Positions 21,001-51,000 of a stretch of 64,000 nucleotides of DNA are shown here, in pieces. A program made the position numbers. Location: assembly GCA_965285935.1 (NCBI GenBank), contig OZ260665.1:5952001-6016000 (forward strand). Direction: 5' to 3'. How positions within the stretch are numbered: the stretch's first letter is position 1; every line of letters starts with the position of its first letter. The stretch is from Ophelia neglecta. Taxonomy: Eukaryota.

Positions 21001-24000
21001 ATCGTAGATGTAAGGTAGGTGTTAATTTATTTGTTTCTTTTGCGGTCGGAAAATACCGGCAATGTAAAGAGTTTAACTGTCTTCAGCGAGACACATAAGG
21101 GCTACTCATCTGACTTAACTGGGAGTGAAAACGAAGGAAAATTGGATTCCTCGAACTGTTTATTCTGCTACTGCAAGTGAAAATATCGAGTTATTGTCTT
21201 AACTACTTTTCAGCCGAATGGAGAAGAATCTACCTCAGGTTTTCTGCAGATTTCCAGAAACCTGTTTTTTTTTGCGTAGAGGTATAAACCCCTTTTCTTG
21301 ATTTAGATTGTTAAATATATTAAAGAAACTTGCTGAGCAGCTTTCCATATCACATCAAGTATGTGTATTCGTAAAAAGAGACGGTGATCAAGTGAGCCCG
21401 TTTTGTAATATCATTCTTCAGATTAAGGAAAACATAAACCTATTATCGATCAGCTGCGAACTTGGTTTTCCTTTCACCAGAATTAAGTTTAGGCCAACAT
21501 TGCCAGGTTGAAGAACAAATCTGTGTTTATGTGATATTTGTTGATTTTTATATGTATATTGGACATCAGAGTCCCCAATATGAGCGTTTTTGGTGCAGAA
21601 AAGAAAATGTGACCAGGTCTTCCGTGTCATATAATACCAAACAAACGAATGGTTATGCGTATGGACTATAGCCCAAATTATTAGACAACTACACAGGTCG
21701 TTAACTGGATAAGCAATTGCTTAGTGAAAAACTTCGGCCAATCAGTGTTCATATTGCTAAGCACAGCTCATTGCTGATCATGATTTTTTTTACGTTTTAC
21801 ATTCTCTTTGCATATGTAAGTGCAGTGGGACTGGGCCTTTACATTATAGTGTGTGACCTGCCCATATGTACAGGTCCGCGGTACACATATCATTGTGGAC
21901 AATTAATCCATGGTACATTGGTCAACGGTCAACGATAGTGCACTATTACCTTGGGTGAGAAAGTGTGATTCCCATGAAGAAATTGACAGCAGTGCCAGAG
22001 TACGCTTCTAAATCTGATCAGAATGATTATTAGGAAGACGCTCGAAAATTTCAGATAAAAAATGAACTGAGTGGATTAAATTGAGTAGGCCCAAGATGTG
22101 AAGCAAGTTTAACGATTCCAGCAATTTTCAAAATCGAGACAACAAATTCAAGAGCATTACGCAAACGCACAACGCCAGCCTGAATTTAACATGCATCCCT
22201 TTGAGCGCTGCGCTAGGCGAAACAGGAAAACAACGAAATCTTGGCACTTCATTCATACTGGAAACCTATGGAACTAAGTTTGTTTTGGACACAGCATTTT
22301 AGTACACTACTTTATGAGCAACACAACGAAAGTCAGGTCTATGATAATACATTTGAATCTAAAATAAATGAGGTAGTTCATGGGCATAATGATCTAGACT
22401 TAATAGATGAGCCAATTAGCTTCGAAGAATTAGATACCGCCATAAATCTTCCAATTAGCAAAGCGACCGGTAGGGATAAGGTATGTTATGAGCATTTGAA
22501 ATATTCCAGTTTGTTTTGTAGAGTTCAATTGTGCTCCTTATTTTTAGTCACTATCTAGACTAGGCCTACCATCTCTAAAGTGCGTAGTGATGACAGCTGG
22601 ATGTAACCTACAGCGAAAACCTTTTCGGTTTTTTGTTAATCTAAATACTTCATTTGTCGTGATTCAGACTTACATACTTGTGGAAGATGAATATATACTT
22701 TTACAAGCCTCGTCTTTATCACAGGTGCCATTGCCAATACCTTGCCAGTGTCATTGCGACGCTCTTATATGGCATATTCTATGTTCAGGAATCGAGAAAA
22801 CACTGTATGTATTAAATTTAACTTTCATGTACAATTTGACAGTAAATCATCAACAATTTAGTGAGCTTTTCTTTTTATCTTTATGTGAAATTTATTAGTT
22901 GCCACTTTTCTAGACAACTTCCATCTTAACCTTTCAAAGAACCTTACATATTGCAAATATTGATAGCTGGGCTCTTTCAGTAAATCAAGTACGTTCTAAC
23001 CTACGATATTTGCCGTTGTGTGGGATGAGAAAGTAGTAGAGTACAGCTAATGCATATATGAAGGCCGAGAGCAGTAAGCCAGCTAAAGCCAGCTAAAGGT
23101 AACAGTTTGCTACCTAAAATTATGTCCGACTTTATGAAGAAAAGTACAAGAAAAGAATGCAGAGTCGAAACCCTACTTCATATAGTGGATCCTTGCTTTT
23201 TATTACAACATTGGTACATATGGTATTCATATAGTACAAAGTTAAGTTATATAATAATATGTCCTCAATATAGATGTTTAGGCTTAATAAGTCGGGTGAA
23301 CGAAAACAGATAATTTGATTTATTTACTCCTTTCCCAGTATGAAAAAAAAATTTAAAACAAGGTTATATTAATTAAGTTTTATTGTTGATTTTGTATTAC
23401 ACAATGTAGCAAATGCATTCCAATAAACTGTACGATTAATATATAAGATGCACCAATGTTTAATTTGGTAGTCGATGCAGTATTTTGGCACATCGCTTTG
23501 ATTAAAAGCCATTTACATAAGATTAGTTCCTCTATACTTAATTAAAATATAATTGAATAAATTAATACGTGTAAGTACGAAAAAGATTATGGAAGCTGAA
23601 AGCCTTGATTCCTTTTTAATTTTTCGACATGTAGTGTTGTTTAAAAAAATCATTAAAAACATTTTACAAAAATATAGATCGTCGTACACATGAATAATGT
23701 GTAACTAGTAAATTCAAGTACATTTTATTTTAGTATATAACTTTATTTAGGTAATTGGTCCGGAAATAAGTCCCCCCTTGATACACAGGGGAATTATAGG
23801 AAAAACTGGTTGTATCTGCGTCTGGGGTCTTATCCGAAGACGATTTGGCCCTGTTCATACAAATCCTAGTGATTATGATGATTAAAGCGATTACACCAAT
23901 CCCGCCTACAATACTCCCGACAATGATGTACACCAAAGAGTTGTTCGCTGTTTGAGCCACTGTGATGAAAAGTGAACAAGTCAGCCAAACATTAAAGGTT

Positions 24001-48000: not shown

Positions 48001-51000
48001 AGGCGATCTCAGCACACGTGTTTTTTTTACCAGTGTTCATGAATTTGGCCCAATTAACGCATTCTCTTAATAAGCATATAGAATATTCTAACCCTCACTT
48101 TCCTTAACTCCGCACACGACTTTTTCTACCAGTGTTCATGAACTTGGCCCAACGCATTCTTTCAAAAAAGCGTTTAAAATATTCTAACCCTCACTTTCCT
48201 TATCGCAATACGTACAGAGACTTGCGCTATGTTAATAACCCTGACACCGATAATAACCCTACCCTAACCCGACGGTCGATGTCGATGTTGGCAGAGATTA
48301 CCGAAAAAGACATAATTTTAATGATATTTAAACGAAATGTAAATAGTTTTGGATTAGAATGTAAAGAACGCTTATGAGCGATGGTGAAGGTTATACACAA
48401 GGCACATCGTCATTACATCCAAATCAAGTAACAGGGACTACTGGTGGAATATAGACGGTGGCGGATCCAGGATTTCAGGAAGGGGAGGGGAAATTTTCCA
48501 AAGGCCAATGTCTGGATTACCAACCCTCTGAAACCACCTTACGAAAGTCCGGAAATAGGCAAAAGGGGGGGGGGTGGTCCCCTGCACCCCCCCCCCCCCT
48601 AAATCCGCCACTGATAGACATGCCGCCCTACTGGTATCCATTGAATTTGCGGCTGCCATAGATCGCTCCATTAATTTCTGTGTAAATTGATTGTAACCGC
48701 TTTCTTCGTCTAAGCCAGACACTGGGCTATCATCTCGGAGCTGGTTTCAATCCACGGGTACCACTTAACTTCCCTCATGTTCCCCTTATTTTACCCGCAA
48801 ATAGGCGCAGCTTCCACGCAAATGGGCTGGACATCAACCCCGTGACTCTCCGTACTCGTCCCGCTCTTATCAGTCGGTAATAAAAACACGCAATTCCCCA
48901 TGTATAAGATGGTTTACTGCCGATGATGTATTGGGTGTCATATACCGGACCAAGTATAAAGAAACAATATTCAGATTATTTCTGCGGAAATCATACACGG
49001 CAAGCAAGCGGCATGGACCGTCTGTCTTCAGTGTGTAGATCGGGCAACCTAGAGCTATAGCTATAGGTGTATTATGATTTGCCAACATCCCTGGACTATA
49101 TTACCCTTTCCTTACAGATTTTCGATAACTTAAACCGACTTCTTAAACCACCATTCTGTTTTACCAGAAAATCGCATGGCTAGTATACTTAAATGTGATG
49201 ATCATGACATGTCTATGGAATTATCCTATATTGATGAGCAATTTATTATGAAGTCACACAGATTTGTTTCCTAATGACCTCATTGTCAATTTAAATTTAT
49301 TCCACGTTGAATTCCGATTAAAATTGGGATTCATGTGTGAGTCATTTGTTTCGACAATGGCAAGTCATTAATTTGAGTTTTTCGATGTATCTTTGTCTTG
49401 TTAACAGTCTCGTTGACCAGCGAGCCTGACCAACCCACTGGAGTTCTCTGGTGAACGGCCGGTGATTAGGATGGCATGAATTACTAGCCGAACACTGGCG
49501 GTCGACGCTCCTAAACCGACACTCCTGCCGGCGTGTCCGGGCCGCCGAACAACTCGTGTCAGGCAGGCCCGTGACCGCTTCAGAGTTCCAGTAGGCTACA
49601 CCGCGTCAGTCTCCAGTTTGGTGGTCGGCAGTGAACACGTTTTTTTTATACCCAGCCCACCTTCTCCCTTTTTTTTTCTTTTTCTTCTCTTTCTCTCAAT
49701 AAGGTCACGCTTTAGTTTGTTCATTTTTTTCTGTAAATACAGACTGATTCGCAATTGCCCCTGTTTGTATTTGAATTGTTGTAAGGGCCGTTTTAATAAT
49801 TACTACATTCAGTAATGAAAAATATGTTTGGTTTTTTAGCTATGCGCCAACAACTCGTTATGTTACGTTATTAAAGCTTCCTCAATGCCCCCACGGTAGA
49901 TTCCAGAATAGTGTTCCCCTTTAAAAAAAAACAATATTAATGTTGTCTAAATGTGGTCAATTGCTCTTGTAATGTACTGATTATAAGTGGCCCATTTGTC
50001 TAATTACTTATTGTAAAGAGCCTGCCGTAGTTTTGATGTCATCAATAGTATCTCCATGATTTTGCTAAGCGGTCCCCCAGTCCTTTTTGGCACTGTAGTG
50101 TATGCCTTGAACCGCGGGGCGCCTGTCCGCTGCGGCCTGTGTATAACTAGTTATGCATGGTTTGCGTCTGTGTGGTTGACAAACAAAGAACACCCCATTA
50201 TAGAGCTCTTCATGCTTACCTGGTTCAGGTGCTTTGTTCTACCATCATCATATATCTTGCAATACTATCAGATCTAATGTATTTGTATTATCATCAGTTG
50301 TGTCTCATTTTGATCAACAAGTGACTATCGTTATATTTTGTTGTAAATAATAGACTATTTCACAAATAGTTTGTTAGAATGGGTTTTTCATTTTCTTTAT
50401 TCACCAGTTTTTGGACTACTGTATTGATTATACTTATTATTGTATTTACATGTCCCATCATATCACTCCATTCCAGCTTCTTGGTGTTTTGAACTTAGTG
50501 ACTTGGCAGACAAATCGCACCTAATGTCAGTATACTTGTAAAAATTGTCTCAATGATTTATGTGGGAAATTGACCAACATGGACAAAGCACAGTGCAAAC
50601 GCATTCATGAACCTAAGTATAGTTTACGGGTTTTGTTTATCAATGTTCAAATCATCACTAGAATACTACAATATCTATACAACGCGCCACAAAAATATAT
50701 ATGAATGCAAAATTTCACTCACCATTGTCAATCGACAGTAAGGCCGTTTGTGGAGACGGCTGTGGGTGTATTTTCTTTCGTTTGACATGTTGGTGGGGAT
50801 TTCTGAACTTCTCTCTAGCATCAGACGCCGTGATGAAGAGAAATACCGAAATCTGATACAGTTTTGCGAAATCTGAAAGAGTTAATGTTTGAGGTATTTG
50901 ATACATACTCATGAATATCGACTGCCCAAAAAACATAGCAAACTTGTGCACCACATGTCATAGACAGAAAAAAGGAAGAATTGAATCAATTCGATAAACA

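What the first reader, a model, noticed from the sequence alone, without database searches (positions are those of the whole stretch)
23730..50725. Uncharacterised EGF-only surface receptor with a long stalk of near-identical repeats
Seen: signal peptide, one distinct N-terminal EGF, 18 closely similar EGF modules, 4 divergent membrane-proximal EGFs, a TM helix and a ~45-aa tail with FSYNSPVY (NPxY-like). No DSL, LNR, TB, ZP or LamG domain is visible, so it does not match Notch, Delta, fibrillin, uromodulin or Crumbs architecture. Inference: a calcium-stiffened rod of tunable length presenting a tip domain, with a possible role in adhesion, self/non-self or gamete recognition, or biomineralisation (acidic DDDE repeats).
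Basis: partly seen in the sequence, partly recalled or inferred. Interest (0 to 1): 0.72.

Follow-up and report, generated by a model that had tools for sequence, protein, structure and literature searches.

The report
EGF-only membrane protein with duplicated stalk
An intact invertebrate gene encodes a single-pass membrane protein whose outer part is 23 EGF modules, 18 of them recent near-identical copies; it is a fairly ordinary member of a known kind of surface or adhesion protein.

Summary
The core observation holds. On the minus strand, 23 one-exon EGF modules lie between 24150 and 44479: 1 tip, 18 near-identical, 4 divergent. All have six Cys, AG/GT splice sites and phase 1-1. A last exon follows with a 24-residue TM helix, a 45-aa tail, a stop at 23730 and AATAAA.

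The signal peptide at 50725 is not confirmed. That ATG reads 16 codons and then stops. The best candidate first exon is 50723-50936, which ends in a phase-1 GTGAGT donor, but this is unproven.

No other Pfam domain lies on this strand from 23004 to 63987.

The repeats are EGF_3/cbEGF modules. "DDDE" is the calcium-site consensus, not a mineralisation motif. The tail has no NPxY.

The array grew by tandem duplication of 2- and 3-exon units, with introns 78-98% identical. It is under purifying selection, pN/pS 0.16.

Best reading: a calcium-stiffened acidic rod on a type I anchor that acts in adhesion or matrix anchoring. The closest described architecture is the ark-clam protein bcbp-2 (19 EGF + TM).

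This is a new member of a known kind, of modest interest. The spliced model was never joined, and the large protein databases were closed.

The parts
50723..50936 (-). Candidate first coding exon. In-frame ATGs at 50936, 50912 and 50906; hydrophobic core then small residues; ends in a phase-1 donor followed by GTGAGT. A possible internal acceptor (tctttcag) ends at 50873.
   Evidence: The phase matches the tip exon. Not verified by transcripts. Pfam finds no family (member 1).
44360..44479 (-). Tip EGF exon (120 nt): non-calcium, hEGF/Notch-like type.
   Evidence: Pfam EGF 5e-5. PDB: Notch1 EGF and PGHS-2 EGF at ~1e-5. AG/GTAAGT. The only module with the C-x-S-x-P-C pattern.
43217..43333 (-). 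Repeat R1 (117 nt; short N-terminal end, so the calcium consensus is incomplete).
42204..42326 (-). Repeat R2 (123 nt).
41650..41772 (-). Repeat R3 (123 nt).
40517..40639 (-). Repeat R4 (123 nt).
39329..39451 (-). Repeat R5 (123 nt).
38776..38898 (-). Repeat R6 (123 nt).
37485..37607 (-). Repeat R7 (123 nt).
36929..37051 (-). Repeat R8 (123 nt); the reference module for searches and for the fold.
35810..35932 (-). Repeat R9 (123 nt).
34628..34750 (-). Repeat R10 (123 nt).
34078..34200 (-). Repeat R11 (123 nt).
32936..33058 (-). Repeat R12 (123 nt).
32431..32553 (-). Repeat R13 (123 nt).
31735..31857 (-). Repeat R14 (123 nt).
30713..30835 (-). Repeat R15 (123 nt).
29355..29477 (-). Repeat R16 (123 nt); the only repeat with a GTAAGT donor.
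28333..28455 (-). Repeat R17 (123 nt).
26976..27098 (-). Repeat R18 (123 nt).
27099..31857 (-). Two tandem copies of a 2-exon genomic unit (R14+R15 and R16+R17 with their introns), 2380 and 2379 bp.
   Evidence: 98.4% identical: 2342 identical positions of 2380. Introns 98.2-98.6% identical.
26001..26120 (-). Proximal EGF P1 (120 nt; cbEGF with the canonical Asx-hydroxylation spacing).
25646..25771 (-). Proximal EGF P2 (126 nt). No calcium consensus, so a possible hinge.
   Evidence: EGF_3 1.8e-8 but EGF_CA only 0.027. Calcium consensus absent.
25386..25505 (-). Proximal EGF P3 (120 nt; cbEGF).
24150..24275 (-). Proximal EGF P4 (126 nt; cbEGF). An alternative in-phase acceptor lies 12 nt downstream.
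   Evidence: acceptor AG confirmed after correction.
23730..23959 (-). Last exon: 9-residue juxtamembrane linker, TM helix, cytoplasmic tail and stop codon (23732-23730).
   Evidence: Pfam finds no family above cut-off. The Atlas gives only generic type I tails.
23868..23939 (-). Transmembrane segment: 24 uncharged residues, best 19-residue hydropathy 2.96, one G-x-x-x-G.
23733..23867 (-). Cytoplasmic tail, 45 aa: 6 K/R (3 in the first 8), 5 Tyr, 11 Ser/Thr. No NPxY or NxxY; one Y-x-x-P and one Y-x-N.
23724..23729 (-). AATAAA polyadenylation signal directly after the stop codon.

Best explanation
This is a real, intact gene on the minus strand. It has at least 25 coding exons and about 1077-1087 codons, and it encodes a type I membrane glycoprotein.

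The only recognisable extracellular content is 23 EGF modules, one per exon:
- a non-calcium tip module;
- 18 near-identical calcium-binding EGF_3-type modules;
- 4 older, divergent modules.
A 9-residue linker, a glycine-rich TM helix and a 45-aa tyrosine-rich tail follow.

Shown: the modules, their splice phases, the calcium-site consensus, the packing aromatic, the homologous introns, and purifying selection on the repeats.

Inferred:
- With calcium bound at each junction, R1-R18 and P1 form a stiff, strongly acidic rod. Its length is of the order of 50-60 nm, using a per-module rise that I recall rather than measured.
- There may be one flexible joint at the non-calcium module P2.
- The rod is anchored close to the membrane.
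- Its length has been changed repeatedly by unequal crossing-over of 2- and 3-exon units.

Most likely role (inferred, weakest step): a cell-surface adhesion or anchoring protein that ties an epithelial or secretory cell to an extracellular material or partner through many equivalent EGF surfaces. This is what is proposed for the ark clam byssus/tissue interface protein bcbp-2 (19 EGF + TM), which binds a GlcNAc-based polymer. The short Tyr-rich tail could couple this to the cell interior.

It is not a member of the Notch, DSL, fibrillin, uromodulin/ZP, Crumbs or Nimrod families.
For: Gene integrity:
- All 23 EGF exons have 6 Cys, AG/GT splice sites, phase 1-1 and lengths divisible by 3.
- The exon lengths from ATG 50936 to the stop sum to 3261 nt, exactly 1087 codons.
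- The stop is followed directly by AATAAA.

Domain identity:
- Of the 9 EGF exons scanned exon by exon (9 of 23), the 8 non-tip modules gave EGF_3 E 1e-8 to 1e-12 and 7 of those 8 gave EGF_CA at E <= 7e-6.
- 23, 22 and 21 of 91 ORFs matched EGF, EGF_3 and EGF_CA.
- The closest solved sequences are uromodulin EGF I-III (1.5e-11) and NELL2/NELL1 EGFs.
- A single-exon fold has pLDDT 82.3. Its best structural match is a NELL1 EGF (TM 0.86, rmsd 1.3 A), and every listed match is an EGF domain.

Rod:
- The calcium consensus is present in 20 of 23 modules, and an aromatic sits at Cys5+4 in 22 of 23.
- These are the criteria quoted in PMC4826273.
- The 23 EGF exons encode 123 D+E against 18 K+R in 939 aa.

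EGF-only:
- 0 of 83 upstream minus-strand ORFs hit any domain family (one chance-level DUF2671 hit at E 0.0054).
- Within the gene, the 91 ORFs gave only EGF-type families plus three single chance-level hits at E 0.002-0.006.

Selection: pN/pS is 0.16 over 136 repeat pairs. pS is 0.11-0.23 for old duplicates, and their introns are 78-91% identical.

Membrane anchor: hydropathy 2.96 over 19 residues; 3 of the first 8 tail residues are basic and there are none in the 9 residues before the helix.

Precedent: bcbp-2 has 19 EGF repeats plus a TM region, runs at about 100 kDa, is 13.8 mol% Cys and sits at the byssus/tissue interface (PMC11697411 section 7). Here Cys is 138 of 939 aa, or 14.7%, in the EGF part.
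Against: - There is no transcript, expression or localisation evidence of any kind.
- The N-terminus is unresolved. The candidate first exon has a long, uncharged stretch before its hydrophobic core. A second ATG-initiated candidate (60862, donor GTGAGG at 60607) also has a consensus-like phase-1 donor. Upstream exons beyond 64000, or exons shorter than 45 codons, would have been missed.
- The likeness to bcbp-2 is in architecture and composition only. Its sequence is in a supplement that I could not open, so homology is untested. bcbp-2's glycan binding rests partly on docking in that paper.
- 17 of 18 repeats use a non-consensus GTCAG donor.
- The 18 repeats have one residue more than the classical Asx-hydroxylation spacing, so their calcium affinity is assumed, not shown.
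- The pN/pS pairs are not independent: 17 sequences give 136 pairs.
- The newest 98.4% duplicate could be an assembly duplication of two haplotypes. That would make the true count 16.
- The Atlas found no specific relative of the TM/tail exon (best 0.90, generic type I tails).
Confidence: 0.5

Rival explanations
1. A phagocytic or pattern-recognition receptor that works like Drosophila Eater or the CED-1/Draper/MEGF10 group. A distinct N-terminal recognition module is held on a long stalk of near-identical EGF-type repeats, and a short tail signals through tyrosines.
For: - Same overall plan as Eater: 32 EGF-like repeats, a TM helix, and a tail with no identified domain (PMC4359741 passages).
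- The tip module is clearly different from the stalk, at 34% identity.
- The tail has 5 Tyr in 45 aa, including Y-x-x-P and Y-x-N.
- The recent repeat expansion fits a fast-evolving immune gene.
Against: - The repeats are EGF_3/cbEGF, not NIM repeats. Cys1-Cys2 spacing is 5 residues with no C-x-P-x-C start (the NIM consensus is recalled).
- No EMI domain was found.
- No NPxY and no Y-x-x-[LIVMF] in the tail.
- The tip is a single 39-aa EGF, whereas my recollection is that Eater binds ligands through several N-terminal repeats.
- No expression data.
Confidence: 0.15
2. The gene model is incomplete. Further 5' exons, beyond the window or too short to be seen, encode other domains and would place the protein in a known multi-domain family.
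For: - The first exon is only a candidate.
- Intron 1 would already be 6243 bp, so long 5' introns occur here.
- Only 13 kb lie between the candidate exon and the window end.
- The ORF screen cannot see exons under 45 codons.
Against: - 0 of 83 minus-strand ORFs of >=45 aa between 44515 and 63987 match a real domain family.
- That region is repeat-rich: a DDE_3 remnant, a 95-bp satellite and a G-rich array.
- The 50723 donor is a full GTGAGT consensus in the required phase, and the exon supplies in-frame ATGs and a hydrophobic core.
Confidence: 0.15
3. A signalling protein: either a non-canonical Notch-pathway ligand or receptor of the DNER/DLK1 type (EGF-only + TM + short tail; architecture recalled), or a membrane-anchored precursor whose membrane-proximal EGF is shed as a growth-factor-like ligand.
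For: - EGF-only ectodomain with a TM helix and a short tail.
- The last EGF sits only 9 residues from the membrane, and the TM helix is rich in Gly and small residues, as in substrates of intramembrane proteases (recalled).
- The tip module resembles Notch1 EGFs (about 1e-5) and carries the O-glucose pattern (pattern recalled).
Against: - 22 of 23 modules are uromodulin/NELL-like EGF_3 types, not Notch-type hEGF.
- O-fucose and O-glucose patterns are each present in only 1 of 23 modules.
- Eighteen near-identical recent repeats argue for a structural spacer or a multivalent surface, not for a specific ligand.
- No basic cleavage site in the 9-residue linker.
Confidence: 0.1
4. A secreted structural or biomineral matrix component (the first reader's biomineralisation idea, or a byssal or egg-tether type fibre protein). 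The TM form would be a precursor or an alternative isoform.
For: - Molluscs build fibres and adhesives from long EGF tandem arrays: scallop byssal proteins with 1-49 EGF-like domains (PMC9168380 passages), octovafibrin with 29 EGFs (PMC10336842 abstract) and mefp-2 (PMC11697411 passage).
- The ectodomain is very acidic: 123 D+E against 18 K+R.
Against: - The TM helix and tail are encoded in-phase in the terminal exon, with its own stop and polyA signal.
- No furin-type site lies before the TM.
- The acidic residues are the calcium-site ligands of the cbEGF consensus.
- The described fibre proteins carry Calx-beta or C-type lectin domains, and none is found here.
- The described shell EGF proteins have 2 EGFs plus a ZP or ZP-like domain (PMC9290575 passages).
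Confidence: 0.08

Closest known systems
bcbp-2 of the ark clam Barbatia virescens (PMC11697411; section 7 read)
   Same: EGF/EGF-like repeats run through the whole length (19 there, 23 here) and there is one transmembrane region. The size class is similar (about 100 kDa band there, about 1080 codons here), and both are Cys-rich (13.8 mol% there; 14.7% in the EGF part here).
   Different: Sequence relationship is untested because its sequence is in a supplement that was closed. Nothing here shows foot or byssal expression or glycan binding. Whether bcbp-2 has near-identical recent repeats, a distinct tip or a similar tail is unknown to me.
Drosophila Eater (Nimrod family; PMC4359741 passages)
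   Same: A single-pass receptor with 32 EGF-like repeats, a TM helix and a cytoplasmic tail with no identified domain. A long run of very similar repeats below a distinct N-terminal part (this last point is recalled).
   Different: Its repeats are NIM-type, whereas these are calcium-binding EGF_3 type. No homology is implied. The likeness would be convergent.
Uromodulin EGF I-III and NELL1/NELL2 EGF modules (solved structures)
   Same: These are the closest module type by sequence (E 1.5e-11 to 2e-9) and by fold (NELL1 TM 0.86, 51% identity over 41 columns). They share the G-D-G ending before Cys6 and the calcium-site consensus.
   Different: Those proteins carry ZP, or TSPN/VWC, domains and only 3-6 EGFs. 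This protein has no such domains and has a TM anchor of its own.
Fibrillin/Notch cbEGF arrays (PMC4826273 passages)
   Same: Tandem cbEGFs with the D/N-x-D/N-E/Q consensus and the packing aromatic at Cys5+4, which are the features that predict a rigid rod.
   Different: No TB, LNR or ankyrin domains. The 18 repeats have one extra residue in the Asx-hydroxylation stretch. O-fucose and O-glucose patterns are nearly absent.
Secreted mollusc EGF-array materials: scallop byssal 'EC' proteins, octovafibrin, mefp-2
   Same: Long tandem arrays of six-Cys EGF modules, used mechanically or adhesively in molluscs.
   Different: These are secreted, not membrane-anchored. They carry Calx-beta or C-type lectin domains that are absent here.

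Membership tests
Calcium-binding EGF module class (Pfam EGF_CA / EGF_3) | Six cysteines in EGF spacing, with a profile match above the curated cut-off. | tested here: met
   All 23 exons have 6 Cys. EGF_3 scored 34.9-48.5 bits against a cut-off of 28.5 for the 8 non-tip modules among the 9 EGF exons scanned singly. 22 of 91 ORFs matched EGF_3.
Calcium-binding EGF module class (Pfam EGF_CA / EGF_3) | D/N-x-D/N-E/Q before Cys1, plus D/N after Cys3 and Y/F before Cys4 (consensus quoted in PMC4826273). 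| tested here: met
   The N-terminal consensus is present in 20 of 23 modules (R2-R18, P1, P3, P4). It is absent in the tip, R1 and P2. Actual calcium binding is not testable here.
Rigid cbEGF rod (fibrillin/Notch EGF11-13 type) | Packing aromatic four residues after Cys5 of the preceding module. | tested here: met
   F or Y at Cys5+4 in 22 of 23 modules. The tip has Gly there, with Tyr at +5 and +6. The multi-module fold was left out because it needs joined exons.
Notch receptors | LNR/NRR modules and ankyrin repeats, with EGFs carrying frequent O-fucose and O-glucose sites. | tested here: not met
   No LNR, NOD or Ank match in 174 minus-strand ORFs. The O-fucose and O-glucose patterns each occur in 1 of 23 modules (patterns recalled). 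The tail is 45 aa.
DSL ligands (Delta/Serrate/Jagged) | N-terminal MNNL/C2 and DSL domains. | tested here: not met
   No such Pfam match upstream within the window. Exons beyond 64000 cannot be excluded.
Fibrillin/LTBP | TB (8-Cys) domains interspersed with cbEGFs; secreted. | tested here: not met
   No TB match. A TM helix is present.
Uromodulin / mollusc EGFZP and EGFL | A ZP domain after the EGFs (PMC9290575 passages). | tested here: not met
   No ZP match. Only 9 residues lie between the last EGF and the TM helix.
Crumbs | LamG domains among the EGFs, and a tail with FERM- and PDZ-binding motifs. | tested here: not met
   No LamG match. The tail motifs were not compared.
Nimrod / Eater | NIM repeat consensus with a C-x-P-x-C start and a CCxGY motif before the repeats (recalled). 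| tested here: not met
   The alignment of all 23 modules shows 5 residues between Cys1 and Cys2 in the 22 non-tip modules (4 in the tip) and no C-x-P-x-C in any. The best profiles are EGF_3/EGF_CA.
CED-1 / Draper / MEGF10 | N-terminal EMI domain, with NPxY and YxxL in the tail (recalled). | tested here: not met
   No EMI match. No NPxY, NxxY or Y-x-x-[LIVMF] in the tail.
bcbp-2-like membrane-anchored EGF arrays | EGF repeats throughout the protein plus one TM region. | tested here: met
   23 EGF exons plus a TM exon, with nothing else detected. This is an architecture, not a curated family.
bcbp-2-like membrane-anchored EGF arrays | Sequence homology to bcbp-2; location at a tissue/byssus interface; GlcNAc-polymer binding. 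| not testable with these tools
   The sequence is in Supplementary Table 1 of PMC11697411 (supplements closed). No expression or binding data are available.

The most novel reading that the evidence does not exclude
The stalk could be a length-variable device. It has eighteen symmetric phase 1-1 cassette exons, 17 of them with weak GTCAG donors, and a newest 2-exon duplicate that is only 1.6% diverged. The number of rod modules could therefore differ between individuals (through unequal crossing-over) and between cells (through exon skipping). That would set the distance at which a constant tip EGF meets its partner. This would be a calcium-EGF counterpart of Eater-type stalked receptors, arising convergently in a marine invertebrate, used in allorecognition, gamete recognition or immune recognition.
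Probability: 0.1. Interest if true: 0.6.

Novelty: new member of a known kind. Interest (0 to 1): 0.3.

Why it matters
If the model is right, this is a clean genomic example of how an animal lengthens a calcium-stiffened EGF rod by duplicating multi-exon units. Old copies (introns 78-91% identical) and very young copies (98.4%) sit side by side, and the protein sequence is held almost constant (pN/pS 0.16).

It would add a second member to the little-studied class of membrane-anchored EGF arrays. The ark clam protein bcbp-2 suggests that this class ties cells to extracellular GlcNAc-based materials.

It does not open a long-standing question. EGF-repeat surface and matrix proteins are abundant and much expanded in marine invertebrates. 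The Atlas shows look-alike EGF_CA/EGF_3 clusters in Cnidaria, Mollusca, Annelida, Porifera and Rotifera.

Tried and rejected
I replaced this with stop-free ORFs of >=45 aa, packed as vehicle 'alignments' A1-A3. These are not real alignments.
- Atlas search with the TM/tail exon returned only generic type I tails: MUC1, syndecan/neurexin, glycophorin C, all <= 0.90 and sharing 120 or fewer of 256 features. No relative was identified.
- Atlas search with one repeat returned generic EGF_CA/EGF_3 clusters of several invertebrate phyla. It gives no orthologue and no taxon assignment.
- Rfam (gathering threshold) and ARAGORN on the whole window found nothing.
- Tandem Repeats Finder did not report the EGF array, because its periods of 0.5-2.9 kb exceed the 500-bp limit. 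I characterised the array by intron-against-intron blastn instead.
- Other signal-peptide candidates were weighed. ATGs at 47742, 47087 and 49088 have good hydrophobic starts but poor phase-1 donors (GTTGAA, GTACTC, GTCCAT). ATG 60862 has a GTGAGG donor but lies in a G-run repeat. None is excluded outright.
- Literature searches for a named equivalent found analogues but not this gene. They search words, not sequence, so they cannot show that it is undescribed.
- Not done:
  - The joined, spliced protein was never built, searched or folded.
  - Genome contigs holds only bacteria and archaea, so I did not use it.

Full report
WHAT THE WINDOW IS.
The window has no N. It is AT-rich (31-52% GC per 2-kb bin) with CpG o/e 0.72. 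I do not take it for human. The neighbouring gene on the plus strand (exons at about 10175-18246) is a nicotinic-receptor alpha-like subunit. Its exon at 11271-11597 matches human alpha-4 and alpha-7 only at E about 1e-22 with many differences. The window also carries a retrotransposon integrase (13448-14206) and a Tc1/mariner-type DDE_3 remnant (45580-45876). It looks like a marine invertebrate, possibly a mollusc, but I did not establish the organism.

THE OBSERVATION.
- The gene is on the minus strand.
- A six-cysteine EGF pattern scan of both strands found 23 matches, all on the minus strand between 24154 and 44471.
- tblastn with one repeat recovered the same 22 calcium-type modules at E 3e-12 to 4e-28. 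Nothing else scored better than E 0.31, so there are no decayed extra copies.
- Identity to repeat R8 is 87-98% for the other 17 repeats, 67, 48, 64 and 62% for the four membrane-proximal modules, and 34% for the tip.
- Each module is one exon of 117-126 nt with exactly six Cys, an AG before it and a GT after it. All introns are phase 1 (P4 corrected to 24275-24150).
- The last exon (23959-23730) encodes a 9-residue linker and a 24-residue uncharged segment (hydropathy 2.96 over 19 residues, one G-x-x-x-G).
- It then encodes a 45-aa tail that begins with three basic residues in eight and holds FSYNSPVY, followed by a stop and, directly after it, AATAAA.

THE SIGNAL PEPTIDE IS THE WEAK POINT.
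Read straight on, it gives 16 codons and a stop.
- Those three bases are in fact the end of an exon followed by GTGAGT. In the other frame this is a phase-1 donor, which matches the phase-1 acceptor of the tip exon.
- That exon (50723-50936) has in-frame ATGs at 50936, 50912 and 50906. It has a 9-residue hydrophobic core followed by small residues and then a basic linker.
- I scanned the minus strand from 44520 to 64000 for ATG-started ORFs of >=15 codons with a hydrophobic window. There were 27 candidates, and 15 had some phase-1 GT.
- Only two loci had a GTRAG-type donor. One is this locus, with three nested ATGs. The other is at 60862/60607, inside a G-run repeat.
- Candidates at 47742, 47087 and 49088 have better-looking hydrophobic starts but poor donors.
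- A good acceptor (tctttcag, ending at 50873) inside the candidate exon means that a short exon further upstream could supply the start codon instead.
- With the 50936 start, the exon lengths sum to exactly 1087 codons.
- So a signal peptide is plausible but not shown.

EGF-ONLY ARCHITECTURE.
The spliced protein was never joined, searched or folded.
- Pfam on 9 of the 23 EGF exons gave EGF_3 as the best family for the 8 non-tip modules (E 1e-8 to 1e-12). EGF_CA scored at E <= 7e-6 for 7 of those 8, and plain EGF (5e-5) for the tip. The TM/tail exon matched nothing above cut-off.
- To look for other domains I scanned every stop-free minus-strand ORF of >=45 aa.
- In the 91 ORFs within 23004-44519, 23, 22 and 21 matched EGF, EGF_3 and EGF_CA. 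Other EGF-type families also appeared, plus three single chance-level hits at E 0.002-0.006.
- The 83 ORFs in 44515-63987 gave no domain, apart from one DUF2671 hit at E 0.0054.
- The 95 plus-strand ORFs in 44708-63990 gave only the DDE_3 remnant.
- Exons shorter than 45 codons, or lying beyond 64000, would escape this screen.

WHAT THE MODULES ARE.
- The closest solved sequences to a repeat are uromodulin EGF I-III (1.5e-11) and NELL2/NELL1 EGFs (3e-11, 2e-9).
- A fold of one exon, using the 23 exon translations as separate alignment rows, has pLDDT 82.3 and two beta-hairpin strands.
- Its best PDB matches are NELL1 (TM 0.86, rmsd 1.3 A), NELL2, thrombospondin-2, COMP and nidogen EGFs. No match reaches E <= 0.001, as expected for 40 residues.
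- The tip resembles Notch1, PGHS-2 and neurexin EGFs at about 1e-5.

THE 'DDDE' MOTIF AND THE ROD.
Its first Asp is the codon split by the intron (G|AT).
- PMC4826273 (passages read) states this consensus. It also states that a packing aromatic four residues after Cys5 of the preceding module predicts a rigid, rod-like pair.
- Here the consensus is present in 20 of 23 modules. It is absent in the tip, R1 and P2. The aromatic is present in 22 of 23.
- P2, the third module from the membrane, lacks the calcium site and is a candidate hinge.
- The classical Asx-hydroxylation spacing (recalled PROSITE pattern) is met only by P1, P3 and P4. The 18 repeats have one extra residue.
- O-glucose and O-fucose patterns (recalled) occur once each, in the tip and in P2. 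N-x-S/T occurs only in the tip and R1.
- The EGF part has 123 D+E against 18 K+R and 138 Cys in 939 aa.

HOW THE ARRAY AROSE.
- The introns are homologous between repeats.
- R14-R17 form two copies of a 2-exon unit (2380 and 2379 bp) that are 98.4% identical.
- R1-R12 are built from a roughly 2.9-kb 3-exon unit, with intron classes of about 1060, 430 and 1010 bp that are 78-91% identical. One unit lacks its third exon.
- Across the 17 full-length repeats, pN/pS is 0.16 (136 non-independent pairs). For old duplicates pS is 0.11-0.23 against pN of 0.01-0.03, and exons are 93-96% identical where their introns are 79-91% identical.
- The repeats have therefore been kept under protein-level constraint, which argues for a working gene.
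- 17 of 18 repeats use a GTCAG donor, with C at +3.
- Because every exon is a symmetric cassette, skipping any of them would keep the frame.
- The youngest duplicate could also be an assembly duplication of two haplotypes. I could not test that.

HOW IT MOST LIKELY WORKS.
Shown: a type I topology (hydrophobic helix, positive-inside tail), an all-EGF ectodomain, calcium-site and packing features, and selection.

Inferred:
- With calcium bound, R1-R18 plus P1 form a stiff acidic rod of about 50-60 nm. The per-module rise is recalled, not measured.
- P2 provides a possible joint.
- P4 sits almost on the membrane.

Weakest inference: the role. I favour adhesion or anchoring of a cell to an extracellular material or partner through a long multivalent EGF surface, for two reasons.
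- The only described protein with this plan that I found in a related setting is bcbp-2 of the ark clam. It has 19 EGF repeats plus a TM region, runs at about 100 kDa and is 13.8 mol% Cys. It lies at the byssus/tissue interface, and its EGFs are proposed to bind a GlcNAc-based polymer (PMC11697411, section 7 and passages).
- Eighteen near-identical units suggest a spacer or avidity device rather than a set of distinct binding sites.

The tail has five Tyr, one Y-x-x-P and one Y-x-N (SH2-type motifs, recalled). It has no NPxY, NxxY or Y-x-x-hydrophobic.

RIVALS.
- An Eater-like phagocytic receptor. The plan is the same (PMC4359741 passages), but the repeat type differs, there is no EMI or NPxY, and there are no expression data.
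- An incomplete model with unseen 5' domains.
- A DNER/DLK1-like protein or a shed-EGF signalling protein.
- A secreted fibre or shell-matrix protein. Mollusc fibre and shell EGF proteins are secreted and carry Calx-beta, C-type lectin or ZP domains, and none is found here.

COMPARISON AND NOVELTY.
- It works like a cbEGF rod (the fibrillin/Notch principle) mounted on a simple anchor (the Eater or bcbp-2 plan).
- It is not a member of the Notch, DSL, fibrillin, uromodulin/ZP, Crumbs, Nimrod or CED-1 families, because defining domains or motifs were tested and not met.
- The Atlas shows that such EGF_CA/EGF_3 modules are common in many invertebrate phyla, and it found no specific relative of the tail.
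- I rate it a new member of a known kind, of modest interest.

UNCHECKED.
- The bcbp-2 sequence and the list of 49 species' EGF proteins, which are in supplements that were closed.
- The joined-model fold.
- Transcription.
- Copy-number variation.

My five literature searches search words, not sequence. They cannot show that the gene is undescribed.

Noticed in passing
window 10175-18246 (+): Exons of a nicotinic acetylcholine receptor alpha-like subunit. Neur_chan_LBD E 4.5e-14 and 1.4e-10; vicinal Cys pair in the loop-C region; start of the membrane domain. It is convergent with the EGF gene, with the two 3' ends about 5.5 kb apart.
   Followed up: partly
window 13448-14206 (+): A 253-aa open frame with Integrase_H2C2 (6e-13) and rve (1e-7) domains. 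This is a retrotransposon integrase sitting inside an intron of the receptor gene.
   Followed up: partly
window 45580-45876 (+): A DDE_3 (Tc1/mariner-type) transposase remnant (8.7e-8), antisense inside the 6.2-kb first intron of the EGF gene.
   Followed up: partly
window 62713-63797 (continuing to 63997): A GC-rich satellite: 95-bp unit x 11.4 copies, 94% matches, flanked by related 21-bp and 116-bp arrays. It accounts for the 52% GC in the last 2 kb.
   Followed up: no
window 56250-57300: A strongly G-rich stretch on the plus strand (GC skew 0.49 for 56001-58000) with a 163-bp x 2.1 repeat at 56328-56665. On the minus strand it reads as long Pro/Leu/Ser-rich open frames of up to 233 aa with no Pfam match.
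   Followed up: partly
window 52994-53308 and 53839-54120 (+): Two almost identical open frames of about 100 aa, 845 bp apart. They are probably two copies of an unclassified repeat element, with no Pfam match.
   Followed up: no
donors of R1-R18, e.g. window 36928-36923 (-): 17 of 18 repeat exons use the donor GTCAG, with C at +3. Only R16 has GTAAGT. This is an unusual donor that has been propagated with the duplications, and it might favour exon skipping.
   Followed up: partly
window 38120-38318: A 99-bp x 2.0 tandem repeat (80% matches) inside the intron after R6. It contributes to that intron being about 100 bp longer than its homologues.
   Followed up: no
window 46320-46540, 48440-48750, 52190-52600, 60440-60970 (both strands): Recurrent short homopolymer G/C runs that read as poly-Gly or poly-Pro in open frames. 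They suggest several copies of one dispersed element. One copy holds the alternative ATG/donor candidate at 60862/60607.
   Followed up: no
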